DNA of 32,403 bases from a virus. Its lineage: Duplodnaviria > Heunggongvirae > Uroviricota > Caudoviricetes. A model generated the notes under the pieces. The model was given only the letters and a program-made list of their open reading frames with translations. It was not told the DNA's origin and did no database searches. Position 1 is the first letter of the stretch; the number at the start of each line of letters is the position of its first letter. This document shows, piece by piece, positions 21,877 through 24,260 of this stretch. The stretch lies in IMG/VR virus record IMGVR_UViG_2617270968_000008, positions 1 through 32,403 of that record. One strand, given 5' to 3'. The position numbers were made by a program, and so were the translations under genes.

Positions 21877-22160
21877 GTACAGGTATTTCACCGCGCACCG
21901 CAGCGCACTCAACCACGTCGAACCAAACCCTTTGGAATGAGCCTTTGAGTAGTCAGTTAGTGCTGGTGAGCCTTGACGGGCTGATCTCCTATGCAGCAAA
22001 GGTTCATCTCAAAGTAAGACGAACGCTATGACAAACCAAGATTCTATAGACCTATCTGATCTTCGTGGAATGGTCAGTTTTCCAGACAAAAGGTAATCAC
22101 CATAGTCGTATGGCTATGAATCTTGTTGCTGCAGATAAGCATTTTGTGATTGAAGTGGTC

Positions 22161-22198
22161 AAATCTCTCAAATGCAGTAAAATGCAGTGCGCTATAAT
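22161..22198 (+). promoter_or_regulatory. Promoter of the moron gene, with upstream tandem repeats
   Basis: Perfect -10 TATAAT at 22193-22198; tandem AAATGCAGT repeats just upstream (22170-22188); strong AAGGAG RBS before the 22227 ATG. Confidence 0.45.
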
Positions 22199-22226
22199 TC
22201 AATAACGGAGGGAGTAAGGAGAAGTC

Positions 22227-22847
22227 ATGAAAGATCAAGATGTTAGGTTCGCGGTGCATCATAAGCTTTTGAAAGAATCGCATTTAGATCCAGACTGCCT
22301 TGTGGTCGATGAATTTTCCATATCCCTTGGCGCCAGTAGAGCAGACATTGCTGTAATAAATGGTGTTATACACGGGTACGAGCTCAAAAGTGAATATGAC
22401 TCTTTGGAGCGTTTGCCTCTTCAAATCAAGCATTATTCTTCTGTAATGGACAAGGTTACTCTTGTCGTAGCTGAGAAACACCTTGAGGGAGCATTAAAGT
22501 TAATCCCAGGTTGGTGGGGCGTTAAAACGGTTTCTGTTGGGCCAAAAGGCGCCATTCTTATAAAGCACATGCGTGGAGAAAAGCTTAATCGAAACCATGA
22601 CACATTGATGCTCGCTCAATTGCTTTGGAAAGATGAATGTATCGACGTACTTGAACGATGGGGCTATTCCAAAGGAATCAAAAGCAAGCCCCGATTTGAG
22701 TTATGGAATATTATTGCGGAAAATATTCCAATAGCGAATCTCAGGCCTGAAGTCAGAACAGCCTTAAAGAAACGCGTAGGCTGGAAAGTTAAGGCTTGGC
22801 AGGCTGAGTCTGCGCCAACCAATAAAGCTGTCTCACGACTAACGTAA
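22227..22847 (+). CDS. PD-(D/E)xK-like nuclease-fold protein (hypothetical; possibly sce7726-like)
   Basis: 206-aa ORF in an AT-rich island; candidate catalytic D...ExK arrangement (RADIAVINGVIHGYELK); own promoter and strong RBS. The sce7726 assignment is from memory and unverified. Confidence 0.5.
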   Translation: MKDQDVRFAVHHKLLKESHLDPDCLVVDEFSISLGASRADIAVINGVIHGYELKSEYDSLERLPLQIKHYSSVMDKVTLVVAEKHLEGALKLIPGWWGVKTVSVGPKGAILIKHMRGEKLNRNHDTLMLAQLLWKDECIDVLERWGYSKGIKSKPRFELWNIIAENIPIANLRPEVRTALKKRVGWKVKAWQAESAPTNKAVSRLT

Positions 22848-23856
22848 TATGGTGCGTATGTGCAACTTTACGCCATTCTTTAGAGCCGCCAGATTTGTTA
22901 GCGCCTAATGATCTTTGGTAAATGTAATCATCCCCCCAACTAAATTTGGAGCCAAAGACTTGATACTCTGGCGAACTAACAAGGGTAGTACATAAGTTTT
23001 TAGTTTGGCCCCATCCATTTCCTTTAACTGCGGTACCTTTTACAAAGATCCATGAGGTATCGTTCGAATATCTCACTGAGACATACTGAGACATGAAGCG
23101 TGGGTCTACGCTCGTAATGGTAGAGCTAGCGGTGGGATAATCACTAAAACTTGGCGTTCTTCCATTGCTAAAATTCTGTACTACGTACATCCAAAGATCG
23201 TATTCATGGCGCGGAATATGATGAACTTGATGTTGCGGTATCCCTGCCTGTGATGCCGGGTATGCGGTTGAAGATAAAATCAAGTTTCTCCACGGAGCTT
23301 GGCCTGATAATGTGTTGACCATGCTTAATGCTTGTTGTTTTAAACTATCAGTTGCGTTTTGAATATCTCCAAAATCAATGATTACATCAATTAAACTAGG
23401 ATGAATATTTAAGTGGTTAACCAGACTTGTGAATTGGTGCCATGTCTGGGGGGTGATAGACATAGCGAGCCCATTGATTAAGTTGCGTTGAACAGCATGT
23501 ATATAGTTTGTTGAATATGCGGGAGAAACAACAGGGATAATTTCCTTACCATTTACTCTAGCATCTTGGATACACATATCTAGAGGATGATGGCGGCTCG
23601 AACCATGTTTATCTAAATATTTAACATCCAGCAAAACAGGACGATTGGCTTTCCAGGATGCCGCAAGGTTAATACCGAAGTCAGATAAGTAAGAACTCAA
23701 ACTCTTCTTGTAGCATTCGTTTTCATAATCCCAGTCTATGTCTGGAATGGTAATGATCGGAGTAAAACCAGAGAGCGTAGTTTGATCTAAAAGCATCAGA
23801 GATTCATATTCAGCAGGCTTCCATTTCAGCTGTGGATAATATTGATGTTGACTCAT
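22789..23856 (-). CDS. Hypothetical 355-aa protein (possibly Beta-protein/sce7725-like), convergent partner of the nuclease-like gene
   Basis: ORF with AAGGAG RBS 5 nt upstream; 3' end overlaps the 3' end of the 22227-22847 gene by 59 bp; AT-rich; no catalytic motif recognised by eye. Confidence 0.5.
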   Translation of the reverse strand: MSQHQYYPQLKWKPAEYESLMLLDQTTLSGFTPIITIPDIDWDYENECYKKSLSSYLSDFGINLAASWKANRPVLLDVKYLDKHGSSRHHPLDMCIQDARVNGKEIIPVVSPAYSTNYIHAVQRNLINGLAMSITPQTWHQFTSLVNHLNIHPSLIDVIIDFGDIQNATDSLKQQALSMVNTLSGQAPWRNLILSSTAYPASQAGIPQHQVHHIPRHEYDLWMYVVQNFSNGRTPSFSDYPTASSTITSVDPRFMSQYVSVRYSNDTSWIFVKGTAVKGNGWGQTKNLCTTLVSSPEYQVFGSKFSWGDDYIYQRSLGANKSGGSKEWRKVAHTHHITLVVRQLYWLAQTQPAKP

Positions 23857-24260
23857 TAAAACTCCTTAAAATCTTTACTTATCCTAAGTATAGTGTTATG
23901 GCGTAACGCCAATTGTTTTTATACACTTGAAAACATTGGGAAAAGTTGAGCTATATCTAAATTTACAAAATTGGATGTTATAGAAATCGAGGTTTCAACT
24001 AGGCATGGAACTGCAAAATTTTTAATGCCTGCACGCGAAAGTCGTTGGCGGGTCCTTTCCGGTGATCCAGATCGTTACGGGGCGGCGACCTCGCGGGTTT
24101 TCGCTATTTATGAAAATTTTTAGGGAAAAATCAGATCCGTTCTTCTTCTTTTTAACTGATTGATTATCAATAGAATTTTAAAAATATAAAAGGATCTGAC
24201 AAAGGCTGTTTTTGTTAGAAAACGCCATTTTCAGATCCTTTCTGGTTCCCGGGGGAGTGT

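What the first reader, a model, noticed from the sequence alone, without database searches (positions are those of the whole stretch)
22140..23915. Convergent, 3'-overlapping gene pair in the Rz-to-Nu1 moron hotspot: candidate uncharacterised defence or toxin module
An AT-rich island between the lysis cassette terminator and Nu1 carries two genes with independent promoters and strong AAGGAG ribosome-binding sites. One is a 206-aa protein with a PD-(D/E)xK-like D...ExK motif (plus strand). The other is a 355-aa protein with no motif I can name (minus strand). Their 3' ends overlap by 59 bp, so transcripts would be mutually antisense. This location, where lambda carries bor, commonly hosts lysogen-expressed accessory or anti-phage genes. 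From memory the pair resembles the sporadically distributed sce7726/sce7725 (Beta-protein) families, but I cannot confirm that. Tandem AAATGCAGT repeats sit just upstream of the plus gene's perfect -10, and a TGGCG-N3-CGCCA inverted repeat sits in the minus gene's promoter region.
Basis: partly seen in the sequence, partly recalled or inferred. Interest (0 to 1): 0.75.

Follow-up and report, generated by a model that had tools for sequence, protein, structure and literature searches.

The report
Gop-less P4 beta/cII prophage cargo pair
Two tail-to-tail overlapping genes inserted between the lysis and packaging genes of an E. coli lambdoid prophage are distant relatives of the beta and cII genes of satellite phage P4, whose three-gene version is a proven anti-phage system, so this is most likely a stripped-down, still untested, two-gene form of that defence.

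Summary
The two ORFs (22227-22847 +, 206 aa; 22789-23856 -, 355 aa), their 59-bp 3' overlap, the AAGGAG sites, the AAATGCAGT repeats and the TGGCG-N3-CGCCA repeat are all present. The plus gene is an sce7726 / Pfam Phage_P4_cII protein with a PD-(D/E)xK nuclease fold and invariant E29, D40, E52 and K54. The minus gene is a Pfam Beta_protein, modelled as a stand-alone TIM barrel.

Both are distant homologues (27% and 22% identity) of P4 cII and beta, which are also convergent. P4 gop-beta-cII is a published defence against lambda and P1. A Beta_protein is also the third component of PD-lambda-2.

The window has no gop and no other partner gene. In 79 of 80 viral contigs fetched through the cII-like gene, a convergent beta gene abuts or overlaps it. 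The same core occurs in Klebsiella, Vibrio, a Sinorhizobium plasmid and a Gordonia phage, and downstream of PD-lambda-2-like operons.

My best reading is a lysogen-expressed, two-gene minimal form of this defence family, with the nuclease as effector and the TIM barrel as sensor or regulator. The families are known and already annotated in RefSeq. The two-gene form and its mechanism are untested. Interest is moderate.

The parts
21848..21875 (+). Hairpin followed by a T-run downstream of the Rz-like spanin gene. It is the likely lysis-cassette terminator and belongs to the phage backbone, not the insert.
   Evidence: Inverted repeat I5, 13-nt arms, 92% complementary. Sequence read. The backbone is 91% identical to phage IdasGreatGrand up to 22031.
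22032..24047 (.). AT-rich cargo insert between the lysis cassette and cos/Nu1.
   Evidence: Backbone homology ends at 22031 and resumes at 24048. GC is 0.36-0.44. Another phage has an anti-repressor plus a hypothetical gene in this slot.
22170..22198 (+). Two AAATGCAGT direct repeats (period 10) followed by TATAAT. This is the putative regulated promoter of the cII-like gene.
   Evidence: The block is nearly invariant in Klebsiella, Edwardsiella, Pectobacterium and Pantoea cassettes.
22216..22221 (+). AAGGAG ribosome-binding site of the cII-like gene.
   Evidence: Sequence read.
22227..22847 (+). cII-like / sce7726-family gene, 206 aa. It has a PD-(D/E)xK nuclease core (E29, D40, E52, K54), a helical C-terminal domain and a disordered 17-residue tail.
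22789..22847 (.). 59-nt convergent overlap of the two coding regions. No terminator-like site lies inside it.
   Evidence: Overlaps of 11-68 nt are seen in nearly all relatives.
22789..23856 (-). Beta-family gene, 355 aa, a stand-alone TIM-barrel protein.
23862..23867 (-). AAGGAG ribosome-binding site of the beta gene (CTCCTT on the + strand).
   Evidence: Sequence read. AAGGA is conserved in relatives.
23899..23911 (.). TGGCG-N3-CGCCA inverted repeat in the beta leader. It is specific to this lineage.
   Evidence: It is absent from the aligned Klebsiella, Edwardsiella, Pectobacterium and Pantoea leaders.
23918..23960 (-). Conserved block upstream of beta: a TATAAA -10-like hexamer (23918-23923) and TTAGATnTAGCTCAA (23946-23960). 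This is the putative beta promoter or operator.
   Evidence: Alignment A6.

Best explanation
This is a self-contained two-gene cargo cassette carried by a lambdoid prophage. It is the minimal 'beta -> <- cII' core of the family that includes P4 gop-beta-cII and PD-lambda-2-like systems. I infer that it is expressed from its own promoters in the lysogen and protects the lysogen against other phages. I propose that the cII-like PD-(D/E)xK protein is the effector and cuts DNA. I propose that the beta TIM-barrel protein senses infection or gates the effector, possibly through an enzymatic activity of its own. The tail-to-tail overlap without a terminator would let the two transcripts interfere with each other and so couple their expression levels. 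Shown here: family membership, folds, conserved catalytic residues, tight gene linkage, mobility between cargo sites, and absence of gop. Taken from the literature: the three-gene relatives defend against phage. Inferred: defence by this two-gene form, the assignment of roles, and antisense coupling.
For: Homology and shared convergent layout with P4 beta and cII. P4 gop-beta-cII protects against lambda and P1 (PMC9122126) and is triggered to kill cells by phage orf184 (bioRxiv 2023.04.06.535777). PD-lambda-2C, described there as related to a P4 phage antitoxin, is needed for defence but not for toxin neutralisation (PMC9519451); the PADLOC PD-Lambda-2_C model matches the window beta protein. 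This fits a sensor or gate role. 79 of 80 viral contigs fetched through cII also have a convergent beta, and none has gop. A search with beta returns the same contigs. The pair sits in four different cargo slots: lysis-to-terminase in two unrelated head-gene backgrounds, next to hokD, next to an integrase, and in the P4 hotspot. It is also found on plasmids and in Actinobacteria. PD-lambda-2-like operons carry the same convergent cII. The nuclease motif is invariant across phyla and the fold is confirmed. Beta keeps conserved polar residues: D161, D239 and H336 are invariant, and E16, D77 and R216 are nearly so. The cII promoter block is conserved. The cassette is sporadic, present in 126 of 5426 complete E. 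coli genomes.
Against: No experiment has tested a gop-less pair. In P4 the known toxic component is Gop, a small protein whose sequence looks by eye to have a hydrophobic, possibly membrane-spanning, N-terminus, and it is absent here. The pair could therefore be an inactive remnant or have another role. If ECOR42 carries a convergent cII, the published PD-lambda-2 clone (about 390 bp beyond beta) would have truncated it. cII would then be dispensable in that system. cII-like genes persist where beta is lost, frameshifted or split by IS1 (L056, L045, L078). The roles are therefore not a simple toxin and antitoxin. Beta's fold matches are generic and give no activity. The promoter scan is not above chance.
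Confidence: 0.55

Rival explanations
1. It is a toxin-antitoxin or addiction module. The cII-like nuclease is a toxin held in check by beta, which was described as the antitoxin in P4. The main effect would be to stabilise the prophage rather than to exclude other phages.
For: P4 beta neutralises Gop toxicity. PD-lambda-2 is TA-like. The two genes are tightly linked.
Against: cII-like genes remain intact where beta is deleted, frameshifted or interrupted by IS1. The genes are convergent with separate promoters, unlike type II TA operons. PD-lambda-2C is not needed to neutralise the toxin. A 355-aa TIM barrel with conserved polar residues looks like an enzyme or sensor, not a typical antitoxin.
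Confidence: 0.15
2. It is a modification-dependent restriction pair. Beta would be a TIM-barrel enzyme that modifies DNA or a nucleotide (self-marking or signal synthesis). The cII-like nuclease would cut DNA lacking the mark, or act in response to the product.
Confidence: 0.12
3. It is phage housekeeping or lysogeny control, as the historical name cII suggests, or a decaying remnant of gop-beta-cII with no present function.
For: From memory and unverified here: P4 cII was defined by a clear-plaque mutation (Ghisotti 1990, which is not held in the library). The window prophage is rearranged downstream of Nu1.
Against: The pair occurs on plasmids and in unrelated phage types and slots. Both ORFs are intact and near-identical in 126 genomes. 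Catalytic residues are invariant over large distances. Most lambdoid phages lack the pair.
Confidence: 0.08

Closest known systems
P4 gop-beta-cII anti-phage system (DefenseFinder/PADLOC 'Gop_beta_cll'; Rousset et al. 2022; Ghisotti et al. 1990)
   Same: It has homologous beta (Pfam PF14350, same 355-aa length) and cII (sce7726 / PF26915) genes in the same convergent tail-to-tail order. It is carried as non-essential cargo next to cos on a mobile phage element.
   Different: The window has no gop. Identity is only 22% and 27%. The 3' ends overlap by 59 nt, whereas P4 has a 27-nt gap with an annotated terminator. The window cII-like protein is 206 aa against 264 aa in P4.
PD-lambda-2 (Vassallo et al. 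2022): HigB-like A, Xre-peptidase B, Beta_protein C
   Same: The PADLOC PD-Lambda-2_C models match the window beta better than the P4 'beta' model does (4e-32 against 3e-10). PD-lambda-2-like loci found here also carry a convergent cII-like gene.
   Different: The window has no A or B component. cII was not described as part of PD-lambda-2.
NCBIfam sce7725/sce7726 sporadically distributed gene pair
   Same: The sce7726 model is matched in full (1-183 of 184 positions, 184 bits against a cut-off of 70). RefSeq names the pair 'sce7726 family protein' and 'beta family protein'.
   Different: The scan returned no sce7725 match for the beta protein. It belongs to the wider Beta_protein family only.
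MmcB-like / SPO1766 (PDB 3dnx) PD-(D/E)xK proteins and restriction-endonuclease-fold effectors such as Can2
   Different: There is no significant sequence similarity to any solved chain. The window protein has an extra helical C-terminal domain and an obligatory beta partner.

Membership tests
sce7726 family / Pfam Phage_P4_cII (PF26915) | Full-length match to the family HMM above the curated cut-off | tested here: met
   NF033832 at 184.1 bits against a cut-off of 70, covering 1-183 of 184 positions. All homologues carry PF26915.
sce7726 family / Pfam Phage_P4_cII (PF26915) | PD-(D/E)xK fold with conserved E, D and ExK residues | tested here: met
Pfam Beta_protein (PF14350) | Full-length match above the gathering score | tested here: met
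   190.3 bits against 27, covering 1-342 of 342 positions.
NCBIfam sce7725 family | Match to the sce7725 HMM | tested here: not met
   The only NCBIfam row for the beta protein was an insignificant ndhI hit.
Gop-beta-cII defence system | beta homologue present | tested here: met
   PADLOC 'beta' at 3.3e-10. BLASTP to P4 beta at 2e-07 over the full length.
Gop-beta-cII defence system | cII homologue present and convergent to beta | tested here: met
   PADLOC 'cll' at 3.8e-31. BLASTP at 3e-19. Layout.
Gop-beta-cII defence system | gop gene upstream of and co-oriented with beta | tested here: not met
   phmmer with Gop finds no hit in the window or in 95 related loci. No minus-strand ORF of 20 aa or more lies between beta and Nu1 except a 34-aa ORF that overlaps the Nu1 start.
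Gop-beta-cII defence system | Protection against phage infection | not testable with these tools
   This needs plaque assays.
PD-lambda-2 | HigB-like A and Xre-peptidase B genes upstream of the Beta_protein C gene | tested here: not met
   There are no such ORFs next to beta in the window. They are present in L140 and L143.

The most novel reading that the evidence does not exclude
The convergent beta/cII pair, not Gop or the HigB/Xre-peptidase genes, is the ancestral functional core of a widespread defence family found in Proteobacteria and Actinobacteria, and on phages, satellites and plasmids. In this reading a TIM-barrel enzyme controls a dedicated PD-(D/E)xK nuclease, and the obligatory terminator-less 3' overlap acts as an antisense switch between the two genes. 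Gop and the PD-lambda-2 A and B genes would then be add-on effectors or sensors. The published three-gene descriptions would have missed or mis-assigned the core.
Probability: 0.25. Interest if true: 0.7.

Novelty: new variant of a known kind. Interest (0 to 1): 0.45.

Why it matters
Neither the beta TIM-barrel family nor the P4 cII nuclease family has a solved structure detectable by sequence or a mechanism described in the papers I found. Beta has about 3,765 clusters at 50% identity. The published systems that contain these genes were interpreted around other genes, namely Gop and HigB/Xre-peptidase. If detection tools require all three Gop_beta_cll genes (from memory, not checked), they would skip this two-gene form. 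It is nevertheless present in about 2% of complete E. coli genomes, and a second variant adds another 1.7%. It offers the simplest genetic background in which to ask what beta and cII do. It also gives a tidy test case for whether convergent overlapping transcription regulates a defence module.

Full report
**Observation**

The window holds a 206-aa ORF at 22227-22847 (+) and a 355-aa ORF at 22789-23856 (-). Their 3' ends overlap by 59 nt. Both are preceded by AAGGAG. Two AAATGCAGT repeats sit immediately before TATAAT upstream of the plus gene, and TGGCGTAACGCCA lies in the leader of the minus gene. GC drops to 0.36-0.44 over the region.

**Where the insert lies**

- Homology to a lambdoid/P22-type backbone (phage IdasGreatGrand) ends at 22031, after the Rz-like gene and its hairpin terminator at 21848-21875. 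It resumes at 24048, before Nu1.
- That phage carries an anti-repressor and a hypothetical gene in the same slot. This confirms that the site holds variable cargo.
- The whole 2.47-kb segment is present, nearly identical, in 126 of 5426 complete E. coli genomes. RefSeq annotates it as 'sce7726 family protein' and 'beta family protein'. In E. coli 55989 it lies in an otherwise complete lambdoid prophage.

**Identity of the two proteins**

The plus gene:
- It matches NCBIfam sce7726_fam (2.3e-54), PADLOC 'cll' (3.8e-31) and phrog_984.
- Its homologues carry Pfam PF26915, Phage_P4_cII.

The minus gene:
- It matches Pfam Beta_protein (8e-56), PADLOC PD-Lambda-2_C (4e-32) and 'beta' (3e-10), and phrog_9159.
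- The NCBIfam scan returned no sce7725 match for it.

In the P4 genome the order is gop(+), beta(+, 355 aa), then cII(-). This is the same convergent beta/cII layout as in the window. Identities to the window proteins are 22% for beta and 27% for cII.

**Structures**

- The cII-like model (pLDDT 89.7) is a PD-(D/E)xK nuclease core followed by a helical domain. Its last 17 residues are disordered.
- E29, D40, E52 and K54 are invariant in 47 close homologues. They remain invariant when P4 cII, a Sinorhizobium plasmid protein and Gordonia phage gp32 are added.
- In a broad beta alignment, D161, D239 and H336 are invariant, and E16, D77 and R216 are nearly invariant. This pattern suggests an enzyme or a ligand binder.
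- Neither family has a solved relative detectable by sequence.
- The beta family is large, with 3765 clusters at 50% identity. The 150 best-scoring representatives, the only ones listed, are single-domain proteins, mostly about 350-380 aa.

**Linkage**

- Of 80 IMG/VR loci retrieved with the cII-like alignment, 79 have a convergent beta gene directly at its 3' end. None has a gop homologue. A search with beta returns the same contigs.
- The 3' ends overlap by 59 nt in the window type and by 41 nt in a second E. coli variant. That variant lies next to hokD and is found in 93 of 5426 genomes. The overlap is 11 nt in the Klebsiella, Edwardsiella, Pectobacterium and Pantoea cassettes, and 32-68 nt elsewhere. 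A few lineages have gaps of 4-14 nt, and P4 has a 27-nt gap with an annotated terminator.
- The pair occupies several cargo sites. These are the lysis-to-terminase slot in lambdoid and HK97-type Klebsiella prophages, a position beside the integrase in Vibrio prophages and in Gordonia phage Powerball, a position beside hok in Rac-SA53, and large plasmids of Rhizobiaceae, Acinetobacter and Rhodococcus.
- In two independent kinds of locus, an operon of a small protein, an Xre-M78 peptidase (PADLOC PD-Lambda-2_B, 2e-80 and 2e-77) and beta (PD-Lambda-2_C, 1e-46 and 1e-41) is followed by the same convergent cII-like gene.
- The conserved unit is therefore beta -> <- cII. The upstream partners vary: none, gop, or toxin-like plus Xre-peptidase.

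**Regulatory elements**

- The repeat-plus-TATAAT block upstream of the cII-like gene is nearly invariant across genera whose cassettes are about 75% identical. It is probably a regulated promoter.
- Upstream of beta, a TATAAA hexamer and a TTAGATnTAGCTCAA block are conserved. The TGGCG-N3-CGCCA repeat is not.
- No terminator-like site lies in the overlap. Convergent read-through is plausible but not shown.

**What is known from the literature**

- P4 gop-beta-cII protects against lambda and P1, and Gop is toxic without beta (PMC9122126).
- Phage orf184 triggers cell death through gop-beta-cII (bioRxiv 2023.04.06.535777).
- PD-lambda-2C is required for defence but not for toxin neutralisation (PMC9519451).
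- The PD-lambda-2 clone extended only about 390 bp beyond beta. Any convergent cII would have been truncated in it. I could not verify that ECOR42 has one.

**Interpretation**

The most likely reading (confidence 0.55) is a lysogen-expressed two-gene minimal form of this defence family. The nuclease would be the effector, and the TIM barrel would be the sensor, gate or enzyme.

A simple toxin-antitoxin reading is weakened by loci where cII-like persists after beta has been lost, frameshifted or interrupted by IS1. A modification-restriction reading and a non-defence reading remain possible at low probability.

**Novelty**

The families and the gene pair are known and annotated, and a three-gene relative has been validated. 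The points I did not find described in the papers searched are the gop-less form in a lambdoid cargo slot, the pair as a core shared with PD-lambda-2-like loci, and the near-universal terminator-less overlap. I rate this as a new variant of a known kind, of moderate interest.

Noticed in passing
window 24739-26013 and 27067-29292: The prophage is rearranged just downstream of Nu1. The terminase large-subunit frame stops after about 119 aa (24739-25098). It is followed on the minus strand by a truncated gpZ, a head-tail attachment (FII-like) gene and an FI packaging gene, and then by a plus-strand tail-tip J protein that lacks its N-terminus. E. coli 55989 has the intact head and tail order at the same place, so the window prophage looks defective through inversion or deletion.
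   Followed up: partly
L140-L142 (metagenome) and L143 (Sinorhizobium terangae plasmid pCB3126_2, locus 1836-5139): PD-lambda-2-like operons (small PDC-M63A-like/DUF6932 protein, Xre-M78 peptidase, beta) are followed by a convergent, overlapping cII-like nuclease gene. This gene is not part of the published three-gene description of PD-lambda-2.
   Followed up: partly
L056 5001-6810 (IMG/VR 2684622845_000002): The one viral locus where the cII-like gene lacks a beta partner has a serine/threonine kinase and a PP2C phosphatase pair in its place. A similar kinase/phosphatase pair sits downstream of Q in the E. coli 55989 prophage (L002 5209-6713).
   Followed up: no
L078 3035-6704; L045 5566-6682; hit H40 (E. 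coli CUVET17-972): Beta is interrupted by IS1 in L078 and frameshifted in L045 while the cII-like gene stays intact. In H40 an IS2 lies within the matched cassette region, but its exact position was not examined. This suggests that loss of beta is tolerated.
   Followed up: partly
window 15421-16470 and 18210-20081: Other cargo-like genes lie in the late region of the prophage. One is an N6/N4 DNA methyltransferase. The other is a 623-aa DUF1737-SASA esterase-DUF6645 protein upstream of the holin.
   Followed up: no
L144 5299-5891 (Gordonia phage Powerball genes 28-29): A HicA/HicB toxin-antitoxin pair lies next to the beta/cII-like pair and the integrase. This is consistent with a cluster of lysogen-expressed accessory genes.
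   Followed up: no
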